A stretch of 64,000 nt of DNA from a virus (IMGVR_UViG_3300046314_000558:35860-99859); one strand, 5' to 3'. Counted from the first letter of the stretch, positions 6,141 through 25,363 are shown. Notes: generated by a model from the sequence alone, not told the origin. Numbers and translations: made by a program.

Positions 6141-7436
6141 ATGCCTAAAGCAGTAATATCAAATCGTATTTACATGGATAATCCTGGTGTAGAACACACA
6201 AAAAAGATTATCGGTGCACTTACCTACAAAATCAAAAAAGACACTGGTTCAAAGCGTTTTGCTACAGTAGAAACTATCAAGAATTATAAGGTGCTGCCCA
6301 AAGGTATTCTATCAATTCCCCAAGGTCGCCTAGACTTAATTCCCGAAGACTATGAAATCATTGATAAACGATTGCTTGAGGATGTACCTTTCCCAACGCC
6401 TAAATATCCTCTACGACCCGAACAGCAAGTGGTTTATGACCCAATCGACGACACGTGCTTTATCAATGCCCTTGTGGGATGGGGAAAGACTTTTACAGCC
6501 TTACACCTTGCTCACAAGTTCGGACAAAAAACTCTTGTTATCACCCACACAGCTGCACTCCGAGACCAGTGGTGCGAAGAAATTGAAGTCCTATTCGGGA
6601 CGCAGTGCGGAGTTATTGGTGGTGGACGAGTTGACCACGCCGACCACTTTATCACAGTGGCCAATATACAGACGCTCAGCAAGTGTGCTGGTGACTTGGC
6701 TAAGGAGTTTGGGACTATTATCTTGGACGAAGCCCACCACTGTCCTGCCACTACATTTGCACAAACAGTGGACGTATTCCATGCCCGCTACCGAATTGCT
6801 CTTAGTGGCACAATGATTCGCAAAGACGGCAAACACATCTTGTTTGGTGACTATTTTGGCCCTCTAGTATACAAGCCACCACAGTCGAATACACTGACTC
6901 CAACAGTGCACATTGTTAAGTCGGGTATTACACTAAAGCCAGGTGTACCTTGGGTTGAAAAAGTCACAGAACTACTAGAATCAGAAAAGTACAGGCAATT
7001 TATTGCAACCATTGCACTAATGCATATGCAAGAGGGTCACTCAGTGTTGGTAATTGCTGACCGAGTGGAGTTTTTACACAAAGTGAAAGAATACATTGGC
7101 GAAGATTGCGCGGTTGTTACAGGCGACACAGATTACGAAGAACGACAGTACGTCAAACAAGAAGTCCTCTCAGGAAACAAAAAAGCCATATGCGGAAGCA
7201 GGCAAATATTCTCAGAAGGCATATCTATTAACACACTCAGCTGTGTTATCCTTGCAGCCCCAATGAGTAACGATAGTCTGCTAGAACAAATTGTGGGTCG
7301 CGTTCAACGATTGCATGAAGGTAAACTTGACCCACTAGTTGTGGACATTAACTTTGCTGGTTATGCGGATAAAAAACAAAACAACGATAGACTAGCCTTG
7401 TATTTACGTAAAGGCTGGCAGGTAATAACAGCATGA
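6141..7436 (+). CDS. D10: SF2 DEAH helicase, T5 D10-like
   Basis: VGWGKT, IILDEAHH, LSGT, QIVGRVQR. Confidence 0.9.
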   Translation: MPKAVISNRIYMDNPGVEHTKKIIGALTYKIKKDTGSKRFATVETIKNYKVLPKGILSIPQGRLDLIPEDYEIIDKRLLEDVPFPTPKYPLRPEQQVVYDPIDDTCFINALVGWGKTFTALHLAHKFGQKTLVITHTAALRDQWCEEIEVLFGTQCGVIGGGRVDHADHFITVANIQTLSKCAGDLAKEFGTIILDEAHHCPATTFAQTVDVFHARYRIALSGTMIRKDGKHILFGDYFGPLVYKPPQSNTLTPTVHIVKSGITLKPGVPWVEKVTELLESEKYRQFIATIALMHMQEGHSVLVIADRVEFLHKVKEYIGEDCAVVTGDTDYEERQYVKQEVLSGNKKAICGSRQIFSEGISINTLSCVILAAPMSNDSLLEQIVGRVQRLHEGKLDPLVVDINFAGYADKKQNNDRLALYLRKGWQVITA

Positions 7437-18141: not shown

Positions 18142-18180
18142 AAAAAGCCCCGCACTATTGCTAGTGCGGGGCTTTTCTTT
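18142..18180. terminator. bidirectional terminator where + and - transcription converge
   Basis: AAAAAGCCCCGCACTA-loop-TAGTGCGGGGCTTTTCTTT. Confidence 0.9.
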
Positions 18181-19756: not shown

Positions 19757-19834
19757 GAATTTCCTTGTTGGTTTATATAAATCTCGTGGAAGCAATAATT
19801 TTACCACAAGATTAAACTGCTGTCAAATATAAAT

Positions 19835-20038
19835 TTACTTTGGGGCTTTTGGTGGCACAAGCGTACCTTCCAATTTTTTGTGCACTTTTACTTCTTTGCA
19901 CACTTGTTTTGGTTTCTTGGTCTTGGCATCTGTTTGTTCAACACATACCTTTTTAGTTTCGGCAGCAAATGCCGGATTGTTGTAGGAAACTGAAAAGATT
20001 CCTGCAACCATTAGTGTAGCCCAAATTACTTTTTTCAT
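19835..20038 (-). CDS. small exported basic protein (signal peptide, 2 Cys)
   Basis: MKKVIWATLMVAGIFSVSYNNPAFA signal; KKVC...QVCK. Confidence 0.7.
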   Translation of the reverse strand: MKKVIWATLMVAGIFSVSYNNPAFAAETKKVCVEQTDAKTKKPKQVCKEVKVHKKLEGTLVPPKAPK

Positions 20039-20491
20039 TTAAATCTCCGGTTGAGGTGCCTGTTGAGGCGCTGGCTTGCCATTAATCATACGAATCTCTG
20101 CGATTGCAGTGCCGTTGAATCCAGCTGTGGTACTAAGTCCTGGTGAGAAACTTGGTTCTTGGCGCGGTACATACGAAGTTTTAGCAGCTTGTGCTGCGTT
20201 TTCTTGTGCTTGTTTCATTAGTGCTAAACTAGCATCAACTTCTTCTTTTGACCCGCCTGCTAACATAATTCCCGATAGTGTACCAGTTAAAAATGTAGCA
20301 ATTGGCACAATTAACTCAAAGAATTTTTGGTCAATTGGTGAGATAGCGTTTAGTGGCTGTGTTACAAAAATCAAGCTGTAAAGCACCACAAACACAATAC
20401 CTGTTAGTGTTAGCGCCAAACACACTCCAATAAAAAACTTTAGGCGAGCCATTAGTTGCTCATCGGTGTATAAAAACGTGTTACTTTGCAC
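20039..20491 (-). CDS. two-TM membrane protein (holin-like topology)
   Basis: Hydrophobic FFIGVCLALTLTGIVFVVLYSLIFV and LIVPIATFLTGTLSGIMLAG. Confidence 0.7.
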   Translation of the reverse strand: MQSNTFLYTDEQLMARLKFFIGVCLALTLTGIVFVVLYSLIFVTQPLNAISPIDQKFFELIVPIATFLTGTLSGIMLAGGSKEEVDASLALMKQAQENAAQAAKTSYVPRQEPSFSPGLSTTAGFNGTAIAEIRMINGKPAPQQAPQPEI

Positions 20492-20750
20492 AGGTGACTC
20501 CTGAGGTGGTTGGTGTTGGGGTTTGAGCTGGCGTTGCCTGAGGGTCTAGTCTTGGGTCGCGCTGCCCTTTGAAAATATGGTCAGGACAAGTACGTGTTAC
20601 GTCGCAAATTGGTCGCTTACATTGTGGCGAGTCCCAATTATCCGGGTTTTGGCACGGATAGCGAAAACGATCTCCACCAAAAAACGCTAGTGCAACTGGC
20701 AGCACAATCAGCACTCCTAGCCATTTAAATAATTTTAAGTCGGTGTTCAT
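20481..20750 (-). CDS. single-TM protein with 4-Cys domain
   Basis: WLGVLIVLPVALAFFG then RYPCQNP...CKRPICDVTRTCP. Confidence 0.7.
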   Translation of the reverse strand: MNTDLKLFKWLGVLIVLPVALAFFGGDRFRYPCQNPDNWDSPQCKRPICDVTRTCPDHIFKGQRDPRLDPQATPAQTPTPTTSGVTCAK

Positions 20751-20753
20751 TGC

Positions 20754-21311
20754 TTATTTTCCTGCTAGCGGATTATCAATTGCCGCTTTAATTTTATTAT
20801 CTACATCACGACTTACACGCTCTAGCCTATTTTCAGTATCACGCTTTAGCTTATCCATATCGTCTTTTGTACGATCAAGGCTATTTCGTAGATCTTTTTG
20901 CACAGACTTTAAGTCTTGGTCAGTCTCACGCTGAGCTTGCTTAACGCTACGCTCAATCTGCTCTGTTACGGTTTCGTTACGACGTAAATCTTGTTTTAAG
21001 TCATTTTTAATATCACGAGTGTAGTCAGAAGTCTTTTGAGAATTTTCCTCAATTACTGATAGTCGTTTGTCAAAATTGCTTAAGTCAGGTGTTACATACT
21101 CAGCAATTTTCTTTTTCATACCCATATAGTCTTTGTATATTTCAAAAGTGCCATAAAGACCGCCCAGCGCACTACTTGCAATTGTAAAAGCAACCATAAG
21201 TTTGGCTGGAGTAAACTCGTATCCACCAATACTAATAACGGTGTCTTTTGAGGCATATTTTTTAGCTGCAGCTTCTAGCTCGTCAACTTTTTTGTTTAAG
21301 TCTTCTGCCAT
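20754..21311 (-). CDS. membrane-anchored coiled-coil protein
   Basis: LMVAFTIASSALGGLYG TM followed by charged heptads. Confidence 0.7.
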   Translation of the reverse strand: MAEDLNKKVDELEAAAKKYASKDTVISIGGYEFTPAKLMVAFTIASSALGGLYGTFEIYKDYMGMKKKIAEYVTPDLSNFDKRLSVIEENSQKTSDYTRDIKNDLKQDLRRNETVTEQIERSVKQAQRETDQDLKSVQKDLRNSLDRTKDDMDKLKRDTENRLERVSRDVDNKIKAAIDNPLAGK

Positions 21312-21319
21312 AATAACTC

Positions 21320-23008
21320 CTATTTATATTGTGAATTTACTAAGTCTTGATGCTTTTGATCCGACCCTAAACCGCGTAAAACTCGTACATTGTCTACAAC
21401 CTTTTGATTTTTGTAAACTTCCCGTGGCTCATAAAAACTTGCGTCACGTAACACAAAGTTTGTGTAGCCCGCATATCCTTGTGGAACCGTTGCCAGCTGC
21501 GCTACACTAACGCCTGTGGCCAGCTCGTTGGTGGCAGTTTGGCTACGCTGTGTTTGTGGTGCGCTGGGTGCCTCGGTTTGTGTAACCTGCTGTGCATCTA
21601 AAATTTGTTTTAGTGGACTGGTTACATCAGCTAAAAAGTTTGTGGTCTGTGCAACAGCTTCTGGCTCTTGATAGCGTGTTTGTTGTGTGGCAAAACTACC
21701 AGAGGTTTGTGTGGTTTGAGATTGCTCCACACTTGTTGGTGCCAACAATTGTTGCTGAAAATTTTGCTGCTGAGTGCTTGCGGCACTAAACACCTGCATG
21801 GCTTGTAACACGCCAGTTGTTTGTTGCTGTTGTGCGGCAACTGACATAACTGTAGCGCGGCTAGTGCCCACTGAGGTTTGTGCAACACTGTTACCCGAAC
21901 TGGTTTCTGCGCTTGCAACGCTGGACGCAACTGCTGCGGTTGTGGCGGCCGTGGCCACTTGTTGTGCGCGATCACTGCTTGCTTGTGCCACTGTTTCTGC
22001 GGCAGCAACCACCTGTTGTGCTACAGCTTTTTCACGTTCTGAGTTCTTGGCTATTAAACTAAGTGCAAAACTTAGGTTAACCGGCCCACTGCTGGATTTT
22101 TCCTGAGTGCTGGCTGCTGCACTTGTGGCGGCCGGAGCCTGTGGCTGAGATTGTTGTAGTGGAGGACTTCCGGGCTGTGGTGGGCTTCCGGGCGGTGGTG
22201 GTGGTCCTGGTGGTTGGGCGCCAGGCGGTGGCGGTTGATTGTTTGTGGGTGGTGCACCTGGCGGAGGCTCGCCGGTTTCGGGTGGCGGTGGTGGCGGAGC
22301 ATAGGCGACCGTTTCGGTTTGCCCAGGTTTAGGTGCCAGTTTGGCCAGTGCATCAAAGTATCCCGTACACGTAGTACTATAAAAGGTGTTTGTAGCGCAA
22401 GGATCAACCGAGTACTTTAGTGAAAAACTAACGTCCATGACTTCAGGCCCATATGGGCCCTGCCAGTAGTTATTATCTCGCCCAACAAGACCGTACCTGA
22501 CATTGGTTAGCTCAGGCACGGCATATGGGCTAGCAAAAGTTTCTGAGAAATCGAACCGTTTCCAGTTATATTGCTGGTTGGTATAAGCCGTATAGTCGTA
22601 CTCGGCTGCGGTGGCACCAGTTTTGTTATAAAACTTTACGTATGCGCTTAAATAGTCTTGTTGACCGTTATCCCAGCCATTGCCATTTTTAGCAGTAAAA
22701 ACAAAGTTAAATCCACTAACTTGTAATCCCTTGCCTGAGTTGGGTAGCACACTGGCAATTGAACGTAGCTGATACAAGTCAGTGGTACCGTAAGAGAAGT
22801 TTATGTTACCACCTGGGCTAACTATTGGTAGTGGCCCACAGTATCCTGGATCTCCTTGTGCCCAACAAGTTAGATTGCCTTGGTAAACCGCATTGTTCCA
22901 TGCCCCATTATTCACCAAATTACCAGTTGTGTCGACTTGTGCGTTAGAATAGCTTGTGAACCAAAAAGCCCAGCACAGCACCAAGGCCAATCTTCTTATA
23001 TACGTCAT
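21320..23008 (-). CDS. exported protein with beta-rich N-domain and Pro/Ala/Gln-rich stalk
   Basis: Signal peptide (RRLALVLCWAFWFTSYSNA), aromatic-rich domain, poly-Pro and Ala/Gln-rich segments. Confidence 0.7.
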   Translation of the reverse strand: MTYIRRLALVLCWAFWFTSYSNAQVDTTGNLVNNGAWNNAVYQGNLTCWAQGDPGYCGPLPIVSPGGNINFSYGTTDLYQLRSIASVLPNSGKGLQVSGFNFVFTAKNGNGWDNGQQDYLSAYVKFYNKTGATAAEYDYTAYTNQQYNWKRFDFSETFASPYAVPELTNVRYGLVGRDNNYWQGPYGPEVMDVSFSLKYSVDPCATNTFYSTTCTGYFDALAKLAPKPGQTETVAYAPPPPPPETGEPPPGAPPTNNQPPPPGAQPPGPPPPPGSPPQPGSPPLQQSQPQAPAATSAAASTQEKSSSGPVNLSFALSLIAKNSEREKAVAQQVVAAAETVAQASSDRAQQVATAATTAAVASSVASAETSSGNSVAQTSVGTSRATVMSVAAQQQQTTGVLQAMQVFSAASTQQQNFQQQLLAPTSVEQSQTTQTSGSFATQQTRYQEPEAVAQTTNFLADVTSPLKQILDAQQVTQTEAPSAPQTQRSQTATNELATGVSVAQLATVPQGYAGYTNFVLRDASFYEPREVYKNQKVVDNVRVLRGLGSDQKHQDLVNSQYK

Positions 23009-24059
23009 CTGTTTTTACCTCATCCAGTTTTGGAATCTTGTCTGGGTTAGCATCCCACTGCGCTTTGGCTTGAGCACCGATTTGTCCTTCGTATGGGCAA
23101 GGTGTTCCTGCCTGCAACATAGCATCAAATACGCGGCGATCTTGGCACATGGTAGCAACTGCAGCTACTTTCATACCCATGTCGTATAGGGTTTTTGACA
23201 ACTTTAAACGCTCGCAGTTCATGTCTCTGACAGTGCCACCACTGCTAACACCAAATACTTGTGTTTGTACGCTTCCTGAGTTACCGGTTGAACACAGGTC
23301 AGCGTTACCGCCACTCATCATTGCGGGAGCCACTGCTGTTGGAGGTGGCTGAATTACGCGCTGAGTTATGTTGGACTCATTAATATTCCGGTTGGTTAGC
23401 TCACCTGAGTTAATATTTTGATTAATGTTGGTGTTGGCGCTGGTATTTTGATTAACGTTGGTGTTGGAGGAAACCGCAGAGCTAGTACTTTGGTTAATGT
23501 TGGTCATTGAACCACTTTGAACGTTATTGTTGGTGCTAACAGAAGTGCTGGAGTTGATATTACGATTAGTCATATCACCAGTATTAATATTATTATTTGT
23601 TGCTGTTGAAGTACTAGTATTCGTATTATTGTTGTTATACGTCATTGTACCACTATTAATATTATTGTTTGTGTTAACACTTGTACTCGCATTATTATTA
23701 TTGTAAGTCATTGTTCCCGAATTAACATTATTGTTATTGTAGGTAACAGTTCCACTCATAGCATTGTTGTTATTATTGGTAACTGTACCCGACTGAATGT
23801 TGTTATTGGTATTTGTACTAGTTGACGTACTTGTATTATTGTTGTTGTTTGTGTTAGTCGAAAGACTATTAACAGTGCTCAAACTTGTTGAGTTTGAGTT
23901 ACTGATAGTATTCGAATTTGAATTAACGGTGCTAGTAGAAACCGAAGTTGAGTTAGTATCTACTAGACTTTTGGAATCGTAAGTACCTTGATTAATGAGC
24001 GTTTGAGCACCCACACTGCTTGCTGCAAACAACAAACCTGCTAAAACTATTTTAATCAT
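22944..24059 (-). CDS. exported Asn/Ser/Thr-repeat protein with Cys-containing C-domain
   Basis: Signal peptide; ~200 aa of NNN(I/V)NSGT(M/V)T repeats; DMNCERLKL...MCQD...TPCP; hydrophobic C-terminal tail. Confidence 0.75.
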   Translation of the reverse strand: MIKIVLAGLLFAASSVGAQTLINQGTYDSKSLVDTNSTSVSTSTVNSNSNTISNSNSTSLSTVNSLSTNTNNNNNTSTSTSTNTNNNIQSGTVTNNNNNAMSGTVTYNNNNVNSGTMTYNNNNASTSVNTNNNINSGTMTYNNNNTNTSTSTATNNNINTGDMTNRNINSSTSVSTNNNVQSGSMTNINQSTSSAVSSNTNVNQNTSANTNINQNINSGELTNRNINESNITQRVIQPPPTAVAPAMMSGGNADLCSTGNSGSVQTQVFGVSSGGTVRDMNCERLKLSKTLYDMGMKVAAVATMCQDRRVFDAMLQAGTPCPYEGQIGAQAKAQWDANPDKIPKLDEVKTDDVYKKIGLGAVLGFLVHKLF

Positions 24060-24060
24060 G

Positions 24061-24684
24061 TTACGCTCCTAGTACGTGTAGTGCATGTTGGTAATGCTTA
24101 ATGCGATCTTCTAAGCCAATAGTACCGCCATTAATGCGTTTTGTTAATGTAAGAATATCACCAGCGTCTGCCCACTGATTAAGTTTATTAGTTTCCCAAA
24201 ACCAACAAGCACTTTGAGCCGCACCTTCAAATGTTTCCAAGTATTCAGCAGCTTCTTCAACACCGATACCTAAGCTAGCAGCAAACCAAGTGTAGTTGTC
24301 TTTGCCAGTTAGCTGAATAAGACCCTTGCCACTATAACGATAGCCGTCGCCAGATTCTACCGGCCCGTTGCCCATGCGGTTGGCATACACAAGGTTGGCA
24401 ATTGCTTGCTGCTTGTTTGGCATCGCTGCATACTGCTGTGCCAACTCATCTGTGGGAAAGTACTTGGGAAATATCTTGCGTAGTGTAACTGCACGATAAT
24501 TTAAGTTTTCACGCAGTGCTGTAAAGCCGCCTGACTCGTGCGCACACTGTGCAACAAAAGCTGCAATGCGTTGTGGCGTATTGATTTTGTAGTCTGGTAA
24601 CAGCTGAGCTAGTGCCACATGCCATTGCTTAACATATGGATTACGAGGAATCAGCTGTTGTAGCTGTTCGAGAGTTAAATTCAT
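24061..24684 (-). CDS. endolysin, glycoside hydrolase family 19
   Basis: AAFVAQCAHESGG, ENLNY, YANRMGNG, GKGLIQLTGKDNY, TKRINGGTIGLEDR. Confidence 0.93.
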   Translation of the reverse strand: MNLTLEQLQQLIPRNPYVKQWHVALAQLLPDYKINTPQRIAAFVAQCAHESGGFTALRENLNYRAVTLRKIFPKYFPTDELAQQYAAMPNKQQAIANLVYANRMGNGPVESGDGYRYSGKGLIQLTGKDNYTWFAASLGIGVEEAAEYLETFEGAAQSACWFWETNKLNQWADAGDILTLTKRINGGTIGLEDRIKHYQHALHVLGA

Positions 24685-24947
24685 TACTTTAGTCCTTCAT
24701 GAATAAGTTTTTGTTTTTGGTACCACTCTTGCCAAGCTTCCAATTTGACCAAACAGCTGTAGTATTCGTTATAGTTAACGCTTACAGTTTTAGCAACACC
24801 GCTAAGAGTTGTGGTTGGGTCCAGCTTTTGTAGTGGTGGGCAGGCCTGCATGCTTTGCAAGCCTGGGGCCTCTGGCCACCGTTGCGTGACTGGCACGACT
24901 GTGGAGCAACCACTTAATAGTGCTAGTGATAGTAGTAGTGCTTTCAT
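24684..24947 (-). CDS. o-spanin (Rz1-like lipoprotein)
   Basis: Lipobox LLSGC, Pro-rich, adjacent to the endolysin. Confidence 0.8.
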   Translation of the reverse strand: MKALLLSLALLSGCSTVVPVTQRWPEAPGLQSMQACPPLQKLDPTTTLSGVAKTVSVNYNEYYSCLVKLEAWQEWYQKQKLIHEGLK

Positions 24948-25363
24948 TTAGGTTGCTCCGCTGCACGATTGTGTGCGTCTACAAATTCTTTGGGTATAGC
25001 ACAAGTGTTGTCGTATTTGACTACTTCACGGTCAATATACTGGATATTATCTGCACCGCGTTTTGTAATCACCTGTGTTTTGTATACTACTTTTTCTTTG
25101 ATAACTTCGTTGGTGGCCGCACTTGCCACTTCAGCTTGTGCAACTTTGGCCTCCAACTCTTGTGCCGCAGCTTTCCATGTGTTATCGCAGTACAGCATTC
25201 CCATAATGAAAATTGTTGCGGCTACGAGGATAGGGCTCACAATTTTAATAATGAACTCGTACGGTTTTAGCAGTTTTAAATGGCTTAAAAAATAGCCAGA
25301 TAATCCGGCTATTAATAACAGCCACCAAAACCAGTCTGGAATGATTTTGAAAATTAAAAACAT
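24944..25363 (-). CDS. i-spanin (Rz-like)
   Basis: N-terminal TM segments, coiled coil, C-terminal CAIPKEFVDAHN; overlaps the o-spanin start. Confidence 0.78.
   Translation of the reverse strand: MFLIFKIIPDWFWWLLLIAGLSGYFLSHLKLLKPYEFIIKIVSPILVAATIFIMGMLYCDNTWKAAAQELEAKVAQAEVASAATNEVIKEKVVYKTQVITKRGADNIQYIDREVVKYDNTCAIPKEFVDAHNRAAEQPK

What the first reader, a model, noticed from the sequence alone, without database searches (positions are those of the whole stretch)
19835..24059. Six contiguous exported/membrane genes directly downstream of the endolysin: an undescribed phage envelope module
Seen: every ORF from 24059 to 19835 has a signal peptide or TM segment, and the genes abut or overlap (one by 65 bp). 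In order they encode an Asn-repeat exported protein, a Pro-stalk exported protein, a TM coiled coil, a TM 4-Cys protein, a 2-TM protein and a small exported 2-Cys protein. Known: virion proteins assemble in the cytoplasm and lack signal peptides, and the endolysin and spanins are already accounted for. Inference: this is a late-expressed periplasmic or surface complex with inner-membrane anchors. Possible roles are lysis control or inhibition, superinfection exclusion, or surface remodelling/aggregation of the infected cell.
Basis: partly seen in the sequence, partly recalled or inferred. Interest (0 to 1): 0.72.

Follow-up and report, generated by a model that had tools for sequence, protein, structure and literature searches.

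The report
Portable late envelope trio in phages
The six exported or membrane genes after this freshwater phage's endolysin are two separate units: a very widespread, unannotated three-gene envelope cassette that moves between unrelated aquatic phages and often sits beside their lysis genes, and three small membrane genes that belong to this lineage's own lysis cassette.

Summary
Six tightly coupled minus-strand genes (24059-19835) each carry a signal peptide or a hydrophobic segment.

They are not one module.
- **g1-g2-g3** is a self-contained cassette. It is colinear in about 70 of 80 freshwater viral loci, including 300-356 kb jumbo contigs, in every marine locus with enough DNA, and in cultured pelagiphages. 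TAAATA, the core of T4's late-promoter consensus, lies upstream of g1 only.
- **g4-g5-g6** is fixed to the spanin-endolysin cassette of this T5-like lineage, with or without the trio.

What the trio encodes:
- g1 is an exported Asn/Thr beta-hairpin stalk with an invariant 4-Cys domain and a short hydrophobic tail.
- g2 is an exported lectin-fold protein (Fbs1-like, Z 13.2) with a long linker and a conserved C-terminal motif.
- g3 is a single-pass membrane coiled coil ending in NPL.

The trio abuts three unrelated endolysin types. In jumbo phages it lies 24-109 kb from intact lysis cassettes, and close relatives lack it.

My best reading (about 0.4) is an optional, periplasm-spanning helper of lysis or egress. 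No family, structure or paper explains it. Other agents of this scan reported the same module on other DNA.

The parts
24944..25363 (-). Context: i-spanin-like gene (139 aa). It has a TM segment at aa 37-53 plus a coiled coil, and an extra N-terminal hydrophobic segment.
   Evidence: phrog_2536 Rz-like spanin and phrog_4952. Homologues in five jumbo records.
24684..24947 (-). Context: o-spanin (87 aa) with lipobox LLSGC.
   Evidence: PF23793 LysC 7.6e-05; phrog_456 Rz-like spanin; homologues.
24061..24684 (-). Context: GH19-type endolysin (207 aa).
   Evidence: PF00182 1.3e-05; phrog_181 6.5e-75.
22944..24059 (-). g1: first gene of the portable trio. Signal peptide aa 1-19. Conserved mature tip QTLINQGTYDSKSLVDTN. 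Asn/Thr 12-residue repeats (NNNNVNSGTMTY type) predicted as beta hairpins, aa ~83-205. Pro-rich segment. Hydrophobic tail.
   Evidence: alignment A2; AF2, pLDDT 50, low confidence. phrog_20531 3.2e-12. Present in 78/80 loci.
23019..23345 (-). g1 4-Cys domain (aa ~239-347), nearly invariant and predicted helical. It is the hallmark of the family.
   Evidence: 73-91% identity in the 80 best of at least 598 viral stretches. 1157 clusters at 50% identity with E<=1e-3. No Pfam fusion or PDB sequence match.
22944..23008 (-). 65-nt dual-coding overlap. The g1 C-terminal hydrophobic tail (KKIGLGAVLGFLVHKLF) and the g2 signal peptide are read from the same DNA in two frames. The g2 SD (GAGG) lies inside g1.
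   Evidence: Overlap of 62-74 nt in most loci; other values are ORF-start artefacts from the longest-ORF rule. Sequence. The same arrangement occurs in HTVC115P.
21320..23008 (-). g2: second gene of the trio. Signal peptide aa 1-23, lectin-type beta sandwich, Cys motif (DPC..NP.YS..C.GY), Pro-rich linker, helix aa 312-369, disordered Q/S/T region, conserved C-terminal motif.
   Evidence: Alignment A1; AF2 model. Present in 79/80 loci.
22394..22936 (-). g2 N-terminal domain (aa ~25-205): jelly-roll lectin/CBM fold, pLDDT about 90.
   Evidence: Foldseek PDB top hits are the Fbs1/FBXO2 sugar-binding domain, E 7.5e-07. VIA Z 13.2, rmsd 3.5 A over 155 residues, about 2 Z above CBM16 and tailspike CBMs. 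The profile touches FBXO6 at the WAGxYGPE motif, E 0.0036.
21323..21550 (-). g2 C-terminal conserved motif (aa ~487-562): ..FYxPKEIYxNQxxVDNxRxLR..SDxxHQxxVxxQYK. AF2 does not fold it confidently on its own, so it is a putative docking segment.
   Evidence: Invariant columns in A1. The motif is also recognisable in pelagiphage positional homologues.
20754..21311 (-). g3: third gene of the trio. It has a 36-aa N-terminal region with invariant TVISIGGYEFTPAK, a TM segment at aa ~37-57 (..SSALGGLYGTFE), a coiled coil of variable length, and an invariant C-terminal D-N-P-L.
   Evidence: Alignment A3. At least 7950 clusters at 90% identity. All nearest Atlas clusters are viral and unnamed. An NPL C-terminus also occurs in HTVC023P gp48, HTVC202P gp26, Mosig_00200, CRP-810 gp51 and HTVC115P gp49.
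20481..20750 (-). g4: N-terminal TM plus a Cys-rich (5 Cys) Pro-rich ectodomain. It is part of the lineage-specific lysis-cassette tail, not of the trio.
   Evidence: Present in 79/80 loci found with g5, with or without the trio. It directly follows the endolysin in L236. Present in only 7/80 trio loci.
20039..20491 (-). g5: two-TM membrane protein, the best holin-type candidate of this cassette (inference).
   Evidence: phrog_25359 1.1e-17. At least 593 viral stretches. Always found with g4 and g6 and downstream of the spanin-endolysin genes. Absent from five jumbo records that carry the trio.
19835..20038 (-). g6: small Lys-rich exported protein with 2 Cys, the last gene of the cassette.
   Evidence: Present in 79/80 loci found with g5. 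Signal peptide ..AFA|AE.
19798..19826 (-). Boundary: strong sigma-70-like promoter (11/12 matches, TG extension) between g6 and phoH.

Best explanation
The block is two units.

(A) g1-g2-g3 is a self-contained, horizontally mobile, late-transcribed cassette. g1 is Sec-exported. It has a variable-length Asn/Thr beta-hairpin stalk and an invariant disulfide-type 4-Cys domain, and a short C-terminal hydrophobic tail holds it at the inner membrane. g2 is Sec-exported and soluble. It has an N-terminal lectin-fold domain, a long Pro/helix/disordered spacer and a conserved C-terminal docking motif. g3 is an N-in single-pass inner-membrane protein whose periplasmic coiled coil ends in an invariant NPL motif.

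I infer that the three proteins assemble into an inner-membrane-anchored complex. It would reach across the periplasm and grip wall or outer-membrane glycan through the g2 lectin. It would act at the end of infection as an optional helper of lysis or egress, working on conserved host envelope structures rather than on a particular holin or endolysin.

(B) g4-g5-g6 are the fixed distal genes of this T5-like lineage's own lysis cassette. They are probably holin/antiholin-type membrane proteins, with g5 (two TM segments) the likeliest holin.

Shown: gene structure, export signals, conservation, mobility, the late-type motif, the lectin fold, and the linkage patterns. Inferred: topology, complex formation, glycan binding, and any role in lysis.
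For: Trio as a unit: g1, g2 and g3 are colinear in 78, 79 and 72 of 80 freshwater loci, whereas g4, g5 and g6 occur in 7, 5 and 7. The trio is colinear in every marine locus with enough DNA. It is present in a podovirus, a siphovirus and a myovirus of SAR11.

Late unit: TAAATA lies within 120 nt upstream of g1 in 53 of 65 distinct loci, against a 5.7% background. The counts are 0/64 upstream of g2 and 2/60 upstream of g3. In the window the trio is fused to the lysis operon.

Lysis linkage: the trio abuts a GH19 endolysin on either side (window; 11 loci; L091). It abuts Peptidase_M15_3 in 25 marine loci and a GH24 lysozyme in L144/L145.

Architecture: lectin fold with Z 13.2. All three proteins have conserved ends flanking variable-length spacers. 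g1 and g2 lengths correlate, rho 0.57. A g1 tail co-occurs with an A-type g3 N-terminus in all freshwater loci and in HTVC115P; tail-less g1 co-occurs with B-type g3 in 35 marine loci.

g4-g6 as a separate unit.

Not cellular: only 4 MAG contigs of incoherent taxonomy carry the trio, and one of them (L088) is clearly this phage type, the other three carry only the trio, one with an endolysin.
Against: In five jumbo phages the trio lies 24-109 kb from the GH19 endolysin. In three of them an intact i-spanin/o-spanin/endolysin cassette stands without it. In HTVC202P the trio lies about 10 kb from the M15 peptidase across the ends of the linear record (about 19 kb in record coordinates), and in Mosig no endolysin was seen in the 6.8 kb examined. 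The window phage already has a complete spanin pair, so an envelope-bridging helper looks redundant. Close relatives lack the trio: T5-likes with 77-93% identical endolysin, and no g1 or g3 relative was found by tblastn in HTVC027P although HTVC023P has both. It is therefore dispensable. There is no direct evidence of complex formation, glycan binding, topology or expression, and no outer-membrane anchor (no lipobox). The positive-inside rule is ambiguous for the freshwater g3. The g1 model is poor (pLDDT 50), and the g1 tail has only about 11-15 hydrophobic residues.
Confidence: 0.4

Rival explanations
1. Lysis-timing device. g3 is a T4-T-like single-pass holin or membrane effector. g1 and g2 are periplasmic sensors or antiholin-like regulators, giving a lysis-inhibition-type circuit.
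For: g3 has the T-like layout: about 36 aa N-terminal region, one TM segment, large C-terminal domain. In HTVC023P the g3-type gene overlaps the endolysin start by one base, which is the classic holin position. Non-essential, patchily distributed accessory genes are typical of timing regulators. T4 also keeps its holin gene t apart from e and the spanins (my own knowledge), as the jumbo phages do here.
Against: No similarity to any holin family in Pfam or PHROGs. Other holin candidates exist beside the trio: g5 and a 72-aa two-TM gene in T5-likes, and a gp60-like 125-aa protein next to the GH24 lysozyme in L144 and near M15 in HTVC202P. The cassette moves between phages with different lysis genes, so it cannot depend on one cognate holin.
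Confidence: 0.2
2. Progeny protection or exclusion. The exported lectin complex masks envelope glycans or blocks the periplasmic route. Progeny would then not be lost on debris, or late-arriving phages would be excluded.
For: All parts are exported or membrane-bound. g2 has a lectin fold, and phage receptors are often glycans. The patchy, mobile distribution looks like an accessory fitness gene. g6 gives a faint hit to T4 spackle, E 0.019 over the signal-peptide region only.
Against: The late-type promoter motif and operon fusion with lysis genes fit poorly, because known exclusion genes of lytic phages act early (my own knowledge). The trio is absent from cellular genomes and prophages. There are no PADLOC hits apart from coiled-coil noise. 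No way across the outer membrane before lysis is evident. The same conserved cassette serves phages with very different tails and receptors.
Confidence: 0.15
3. Surface fibre or aggregation structure. g1 is a curli-like amyloid or beta-solenoid subunit displayed on the infected cell, analogous to the phage-borne T8SS of pelagiphages.
For: The Asn/Thr 12-residue repeats are predicted as stacked beta hairpins. There is a precedent for exported multigene modules swapped between pelagiphage families (PMC9599517).
Against: No Curlin_rpt, CsgG or CsgF hit in the six proteins at E<=0.1. No CsgG in the window's genome or in five jumbo genomes, while the control genomes rang. g1 carries a membrane tail and a globular 4-Cys domain, unlike CsgA. 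The repeat number is highly variable and marine homologues have almost none, which fits a spacer better than a polymer.
Confidence: 0.08
4. Virion or ejection proteins encoded at the end of the structural module.
For: The block follows tail-fibre genes in the window and in HTVC115P. g3 gives weak coiled-coil hits to tape-measure and P22 injectosome profiles.
Against: Cleavable signal peptides are conserved in all g1 and g2 homologues, which is incompatible with cytoplasmic assembly. The location varies (before the terminase, in AMG regions of jumbo phages). Close relatives lack the genes.
Confidence: 0.03

Closest known systems
Two-component spanins (lambda Rz/Rz1) and the unimolecular spanin gp11 of T1
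   Same: All are late, lysis-cassette-linked envelope proteins. g3 has the i-spanin layout: an N-terminal TM segment and a periplasmic coiled coil. g1 has an N-terminal export signal plus a C-terminal membrane tail, like a u-spanin. The proteins are of a length that could span the periplasm.
   Different: There is no lipobox or outer-membrane lipoprotein. There are three proteins, one of them a soluble lectin-fold protein. There is no sequence similarity. The trio coexists with a bona fide Rz/Rz1-type pair in the window and in jumbo phages, and it is dispensable in close relatives.
T4 holin T with antiholins RI/RIII (lysis inhibition)
   Same: g3 shares T's topology class. The periplasmic partners are exported. 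The genes are accessory, late, and not necessarily next to the endolysin.
   Different: There is no homology. g3's ectodomain is a coiled coil, not a globular domain. The partners are far larger and carry a lectin domain and a repeat stalk. No superinfection signal is known.
Sugar-binding (FBA) domain of Fbs1/FBXO2 and bacterial or phage CBMs (CBM16, CBM4, tailspike CBMs)
   Same: The g2 N-terminal domain has the same beta-sandwich fold (Z 13.2, 155 residues, rmsd 3.5 A). It also shares the C-terminal WAGxYGP-type strand motif.
   Different: Identity is 15-16%. There is no Pfam FBA hit. It is an exported prokaryotic-virus protein, and its ligand is unknown.
Phage-borne curli/T8SS module of pelagiphages (Wittmers et al. 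2022, PMC9599517)
   Same: It is an exported multigene accessory module. It is shared between Myo- and Podoviridae of SAR11 and is abundant in aquatic viromes.
   Different: The proteins are different: there is no CsgG, CsgF or CsgA, and no FecR or AC. The curli module derives from Alphaproteobacteria, whereas the trio has no cellular homologues. Unlike the T8SS, the trio is present in cultured HTVC023P.

Membership tests
Two-component spanin (Rz/Rz1 type) | i-spanin: N-terminal TM domain followed by a periplasmic coiled coil | tested here: met
   g3 has a hydrophobic segment at aa ~37-57 and then heptad-rich, variable-length helical sequence. This is a match of architecture only. Orientation was not tested experimentally.
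Two-component spanin (Rz/Rz1 type) | o-spanin: small outer-membrane lipoprotein with a lipobox Cys | tested here: not met
   In the window's g1 and g2 and in the 70 and 68 homologue N-termini I read by eye, the signal peptides end in SPase-I-type sites (..A|Q..SN[AS]|Q) without a canonical lipobox Cys. The real o-spanin is the separate gene at 24684-24947.
Two-component spanin (Rz/Rz1 type) | Provides the phage's spanin function (no other spanin present) | tested here: not met
   A canonical pair is present in the window and in all five jumbo genomes that carry the trio.
Unimolecular spanin (T1 gp11) | N-terminal lipoprotein signal and C-terminal TM domain in one chain | tested here: not met
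   g1 has a conserved C-terminal hydrophobic tail but no lipobox. Marine homologues lack the tail.
Curli / type VIII secretion | CsgA/B curlin repeats in the fibre subunit | tested here: not met
   No Curlin_rpt hit for g1 at E<=0.1 in Pfam. The repeat is 12 residues of NNNNVNSGTMTY type.
Curli / type VIII secretion | CsgG outer-membrane pore encoded with the subunit | tested here: not met
   PF03783 is absent from the window's 99.9-kb record and from five jumbo records, while the control genomes rang.
T4-type holin T / antiholin RI | Sequence membership in a holin family (for example Phage_holin_T) | tested here: not met
   No holin family in Pfam, PHROGs or NCBIfam for g3, g4 or g5.
T4-type holin T / antiholin RI | Membrane-permeabilising activity and inhibition by the periplasmic partner | not testable with these tools
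   This needs expression and lysis assays.
FBA / CBM lectin-fold domain (g2 N-terminus) | Beta-sandwich fold superposable on a known sugar-binding domain | tested here: met
   pLDDT about 90 for aa 25-205. Foldseek E 7.5e-07. VIA Z 13.2 over 155 aa.
FBA / CBM lectin-fold domain (g2 N-terminus) | Profile membership (Pfam FBA or a CBM family) and sugar binding | tested here: inconclusive
   No Pfam hit at E<=0.1. A family profile touches FBXO6 at E 0.0036 over 26 residues only. Binding is not testable here.
Known anti-phage defence / exclusion proteins (PADLOC; T4 Imm/Sp) | Profile match to a defence or exclusion family | tested here: not met
   PADLOC gives nothing for g1, g2 and g4-g6. g3 gives only ZorA-tail coiled-coil matches, E 7e-05. 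The g6 spackle hit, E 0.019, covers the signal peptide.
PHROG families of unknown function | Profile match | tested here: met
   g1 matches phrog_20531 (3.2e-12) and g5 matches phrog_25359 (1.1e-17). Both are 'unknown function'.

The most novel reading that the evidence does not exclude
g1-g2-g3 is a previously unrecognised class of phage envelope machine. It would be a self-sufficient, lectin-bearing, periplasm-spanning tripartite complex, distinct from holins, endolysins, spanins, disruptins and releasins. Aquatic phages of every morphotype would exchange it as a cassette and use it at the end of infection to control or complete escape from the cell. That would make it one of the most widespread unannotated functional modules in freshwater and marine viromes.
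Probability: 0.35. Interest if true: 0.82.

Novelty: categorically new. Interest (0 to 1): 0.66.

Why it matters
The three families are very large. The g3 family has at least 7950 clusters at 90% identity, and the g1 domain has 1157 clusters at 50% identity. [quoted passage not shown] Yet none has a name, a Pfam family, a structure or a paper.

If the trio is a lysis or egress device, the textbook holin-endolysin-spanin scheme is incomplete for a large share of aquatic phages. If it does something else at the envelope, that function is equally unknown.

Splitting the six genes into two units matters for follow-up. It tells experimenters what to clone together (g1-g3). It shows where the missing holin of this lineage probably lies (g4-g6). 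It also identifies natural trio-plus and trio-minus sister phages for comparison.

Tried and rejected
- **Nucleotide search of GenBank phages:** no match. g2 by tblastn: no match. g3 by tblastn: only HTVC115P.
- **Family libraries:** Pfam, NCBIfam and PADLOC gave nothing meaningful for g1, g2 and g4-g6. g3 gave only coiled-coil noise.
- **PDB sequence profiles:** for g1 (A2, A4), g2 (A1) and g3 (A3), only the weak FBXO6 motif and coiled-coil noise appeared.
- **ESM Atlas:** for g3 and the g1 domain, only unnamed viral clusters.
- **Domain fusions:** 'longer' homologues and 92 diverse representatives scanned in Pfam gave nothing informative.
- **AF2 of g1:** pLDDT 50, so I did not use it for fold search.
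- **BFVD fold search of g2:** only uncharacterised relatives and generic CBM-bearing tail proteins.
- **'Trio replaces spanins or endolysin':** rejected, because jumbo phages keep intact cassettes elsewhere.
- **'g3 is the only holin candidate':** rejected.
- **Curli/T8SS:** rejected.
- **Prophage or host origin:** only mis-binned MAG contigs.
- **Expression data:** no RNA holder listed for this DNA. The published HTVC027P time course was not applied, because tblastn with the g1 domain and with HTVC023P's g3 found nothing in that phage.
- **Literature:** searches for DUF4337, DUF7201 and pelagiphage lysis gave nothing on these genes.

Full report
**Setting.** The window is the last 64 kb of a 99.9-kb IMG/VR virus record that is 94% complete. 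Earlier notes of this scan call it a freshwater T5-like phage. The DNA recurs in many freshwater metagenomes. On the minus strand a long structural and tail-fibre module runs down to about 25.5 kb. It is followed by an Rz-like i-spanin (24944-25363), an Rz1-like lipoprotein (24684-24947) and a GH19 endolysin (24061-24684). The six genes of the finding come next. A strong sigma-70-like promoter, phoH and a 16-bp-stem terminator at 18177-18142 follow them.

**Observation.** The six ORFs are at the stated coordinates. Their junctions are 1, -65, 8, 3, -11 and 0 nt, and each has an SD-like sequence upstream.
- g1, g2 and g6 start with a basic residue or two, a hydrophobic core and an A-x-A-type site.
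- g4 has one N-terminal hydrophobic segment and g5 has two.
- g3 has a weaker but invariant segment at aa 37-57.
- The signal peptides of g1 and g2 are kept in all 70 and 68 distinct homologues examined.
- Only 16 of 69 ORFs in the window have any strongly hydrophobic 17-mer, and outside the lysis region these lie inside large structural proteins.

No dedicated signal-peptide predictor was available.

**The block is two units.**
- *Searching with the g1 domain.* A scan of viral contigs with the g1 C-terminal domain found at least 598 stretches. In the best 80 loci, g1, g2 and g3 were present and colinear in 78, 79 and 72. g4, g5 and g6 appeared in only 7, 5 and 7, and the endolysin in 11. The trio-bearing contigs include eight of 300-356 kb and one of 200 kb.
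- *Searching with g5.* The reciprocal scan with g5 found at least 593 stretches. g4 and g6 accompanied it in 79 of 80 loci. The endolysin was upstream in 67 and the spanins in 61. The trio was present in only 33 of the 57 loci with enough upstream DNA.
- *Trio-less relatives.* Their endolysins are 77-93% identical to the window's. In some, the endolysin is followed directly by g4 (L236). In others it is followed by other small envelope genes: a 45-54-aa exported 2-Cys peptide, a 165-aa tail-anchored coiled coil of phrog_32327, and a 52-aa TM peptide. Then come g4, g5, often a 72-aa two-TM protein, and g6.

g4-g6 are therefore the fixed distal part of this lineage's lysis cassette. The trio is an optional insert exactly at the endolysin/g4 junction.

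**The trio elsewhere.**
- *Cultured SAR11 phages* carry it in the same order: HTVC115P (gp54, gp53, gp49), HTVC023P (gp45, gp46, gp48), the siphovirus HTVC202P (gp24-26, just before the terminase) and the T4-like myovirus Mosig (00202-00200). Roseophage CRP-810 has g1- and g3-type genes.
- *Marine loci.* In 80 loci found with HTVC023P gp45, every locus with enough downstream DNA has the three genes in order.
- *Cellular genomes.* A scan of 185,579 species' genomes with the g3 alignment found only four MAG contigs with incompatible labels (Bathyarchaeia, Aquiluna, Bacteriovoracaceae, Alteromonadales). All have 38-42% G+C. One (L088) is plainly this T5-like phage type; the other three matched only the trio, plus an endolysin in L091. 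The cassette thus appears virus-only and is not a prophage moron.
- *Family sizes.* The g3 family holds at least 7950 clusters at 90% identity. The g1 domain holds 1157 clusters at 50% identity.

**Anatomy of g1.**
- After the signal peptide comes a conserved tip (QTLINQGTYDSKSLVDTN).
- A variable number of 12-residue Asn/Thr units follows. Total protein length ranges from 255 to 508 aa. The units are predicted at low confidence as beta hairpins.
- Next come a Pro-rich segment, a nearly invariant helical domain with four Cys, and a short tail (KK-IGxGAxLGxLV-HKLF).
- That tail is encoded by the same 65 nt that encode the g2 signal peptide in another frame. The overlap is 62-74 nt in most freshwater loci and is also present in HTVC115P. 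Tail-less marine homologues have no overlap.

**Anatomy of g2.**
- Residues 25-205 fold with pLDDT about 90 into a jelly roll.
- The best matches are the sugar-binding domains of Fbs1/FBXO2: Foldseek E 7.5e-07, and VIA Z 13.2 with rmsd 3.5 A over 155 residues. These stand about two Z units above CBM16, tailspike CBMs and others. A family profile also touches FBXO6 at the WAGxYGPE strand.
- After the jelly roll come a Cys motif, a Pro-rich linker, a 58-residue helix and a long disordered Q/S/T tract.
- The protein ends in a conserved 75-residue C-terminus (FYxPKEIYxNQxxVDN...QYK). This motif is recognisable even in pelagiphages, but AF2 does not fold it confidently on its own.

**Anatomy of g3.**
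- It has an invariant N-terminal region and TM/juxtamembrane segment.
- It has a coiled coil whose length varies by inserted repeats (176-230 aa overall).
- It ends in an invariant D-N-P-L. The same NPL ending closes the positional homologues in five cultured phages.

**Shared design.** All three proteins have conserved ends separated by variable-length spacers. g1 and g2 lengths correlate (rho 0.57, n = 57), although the loci are not phylogenetically independent.

**Timing.** TAAATA, the core of T4's late-promoter consensus TATAAATA (the consensus is from my own knowledge), lies within 120 nt upstream of g1 in 53 of 65 distinct loci, against 5.7% of random windows. It is found upstream of g2 in 0 of 64 and upstream of g3 in 2 of 60. 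The loci are related and intergenic DNA is AT-rich, so the p-value is inflated, but the contrast between genes is clear. At least seven of the twelve exceptions are T5-like loci in which the 3' end of the endolysin gene abuts g1, so the trio there joins the lysis operon, as in the window. The trio is therefore one transcription unit, probably late.

**Relation to lysis.**
- *For a link.* The cassette abuts endolysins of three unrelated families and in both orders. It abuts GH19 upstream (window lineage) or downstream (L091). It abuts Peptidase_M15_3 directly after g3 in 25 marine loci with 48-96% identity. It abuts a GH24 lysozyme in L144/L145. For a genome of about 100 genes, adjacency to the single endolysin by chance is on the order of 2% per independent lineage.
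- *Against an obligatory link.* All five jumbo phages tested have homologues of the window's endolysin (55-72% identity) and of both spanins. In three of them these genes form a compact cassette. The trio lies 24-109 kb away among AMG-like genes (Hsp20, bilin reductase, secreted Peptidase_S11). There it is followed by the same small 2-Cys peptide, the tail-anchored coiled coil and a DUF4337 protein.

The trio is thus neither a substitute for spanins or endolysin nor tied to a particular holin. Because it moves between phages with different lysis genes, it must act on conserved host structures.

**Best reading and rivals.**
- *Best reading (about 0.4).* The trio is an inner-membrane-anchored, periplasm-spanning complex that grips wall or outer-membrane glycan through the g2 lectin. 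It serves as an optional helper of lysis or egress.
- *Holin/antiholin-like timing device (0.2).* This fits g3's T-like topology and the accessory distribution. However, other holin candidates stand beside the trio.
- *Progeny protection or exclusion (0.15).* This fits the lectin but not the late signal or the lack of an outer-membrane route.
- *Curli-like fibre (0.08).* This is contradicted by the absence of curlin repeats and of CsgG, and by the membrane tail. The pelagiphage T8SS described by Wittmers et al. (PMC9599517) is a different gene set, but it is a useful precedent for cross-family transfer of exported modules.
- *Virion proteins (0.03).* This is hard to square with conserved cleavable signal peptides.

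**g4-g6.** No family names them; g5 matches phrog_25359, of unknown function. They are constantly positioned after the spanins and endolysin. No other holin was recognised by family search in the lysis region, though the i-spanin ORF carries an unexplained extra N-terminal hydrophobic segment. g5 has two TM segments. Together these make a holin/antiholin-type role the natural inference, but it is untested.

**Relation to earlier notes of this scan.** Other readers and two follow-up agents described the same three-gene module on other genomes. They noted that it is widespread, unannotated and often beside lysis genes, with spanins as the closest known system. My results agree and add five points:
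- the split of the six-gene block into two units;
- the jumbo-phage counter-example;
- the three endolysin types;
- the lectin fold of g2;
- the dual-coding tail and signal peptide.

**Limits.** There was no topology, interaction or expression experiment and no multimer modelling. The g1 model is poor.

Noticed in passing
window 22944-23008 (-); L001 about 6353-6489: The hydrophobic C-terminal tail of g1 and the signal peptide of g2 are encoded by the same 65 nt in two frames. g1 homologues without a tail have no overlap. This suggests the membrane tail arose by overprinting the g2 signal-peptide codons.
   Followed up: partly
window 24944-25363 (-): The i-spanin ORF has a second, N-terminal hydrophobic segment (aa 2-18) ahead of the usual TM segment (aa 37-53). 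Homologous open frames in jumbo phages are 158-210 aa. The start site may be mis-called, or there may be an extra membrane segment.
   Followed up: no
window 19798-19826 (-) and 18142-18177 (-): A near-consensus sigma-70-type promoter with a TG extension sits between g6 and phoH. A 16-bp-stem terminator closes the phoH group. phoH and its neighbours are therefore a separate unit from the lysis operon.
   Followed up: no
G001-G005 (records of L008, L012, L013, L018, L025): Jumbo contigs of 300-356 kb share with this about 100-kb T5-like phage the GH19 endolysin (55-72% identity), both spanins and the trio. This implies a common gene pool and probably related hosts. In two of the jumbo contigs the spanins and the endolysin are themselves far apart.
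   Followed up: partly
L006:9938-11143; L202:4916-5705; L236:6897-7286; L087:4318-4746: A recurring pool of small late envelope genes follows either the trio (jumbo phages, Mosig) or the endolysin (trio-less T5-likes). It comprises an exported 2-Cys peptide (CVRWxWxGDVYNRKVxCLEW), a tail-anchored coiled coil (phrog_32327), a 52-aa TM peptide, DUF4337 and DUF7201 proteins.
   Followed up: partly
L088-L091 (GTDB MAG contigs): Contigs binned as Bathyarchaeia, Aquiluna, Bacteriovoracaceae and Alteromonadales carry this phage cassette. L088 has g3-g4-g5-g6-phoH at 65-87% identity. They are probably mis-binned phage DNA.
   Followed up: partly
L084:6210-6632 (CRP-810 gp51); L086:5433-5475 (HTVC202P gp25); L001:6353-6476 (HTVC115P gp53): GenBank annotations look off. 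CRP-810 gp51, annotated 'lysozyme', has no Pfam hit at E<=0.01 and is a g3-type TM coiled coil ending in NPL. The annotated starts of HTVC202P gp25 and HTVC115P gp53 cut off an upstream in-frame signal peptide.
   Followed up: partly
L006:4657-5391 (-) and 13 other loci: A secreted Peptidase_S11 (DD-carboxypeptidase/endopeptidase, PF00768 2.2e-36) is encoded within about 5 kb of the trio in many jumbo-type loci, together with a small exported protein (phrog_25396). This is another phage gene aimed at the cell wall.
   Followed up: no
window 21320-21330 (-): The only TAAATA in the lysis-trio region of the window overlaps the g2 stop codon and the g3 ribosome-binding site (TATAAATAGGAG). It could be an internal late promoter for g3-g6, or it could be coincidence.
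   Followed up: no
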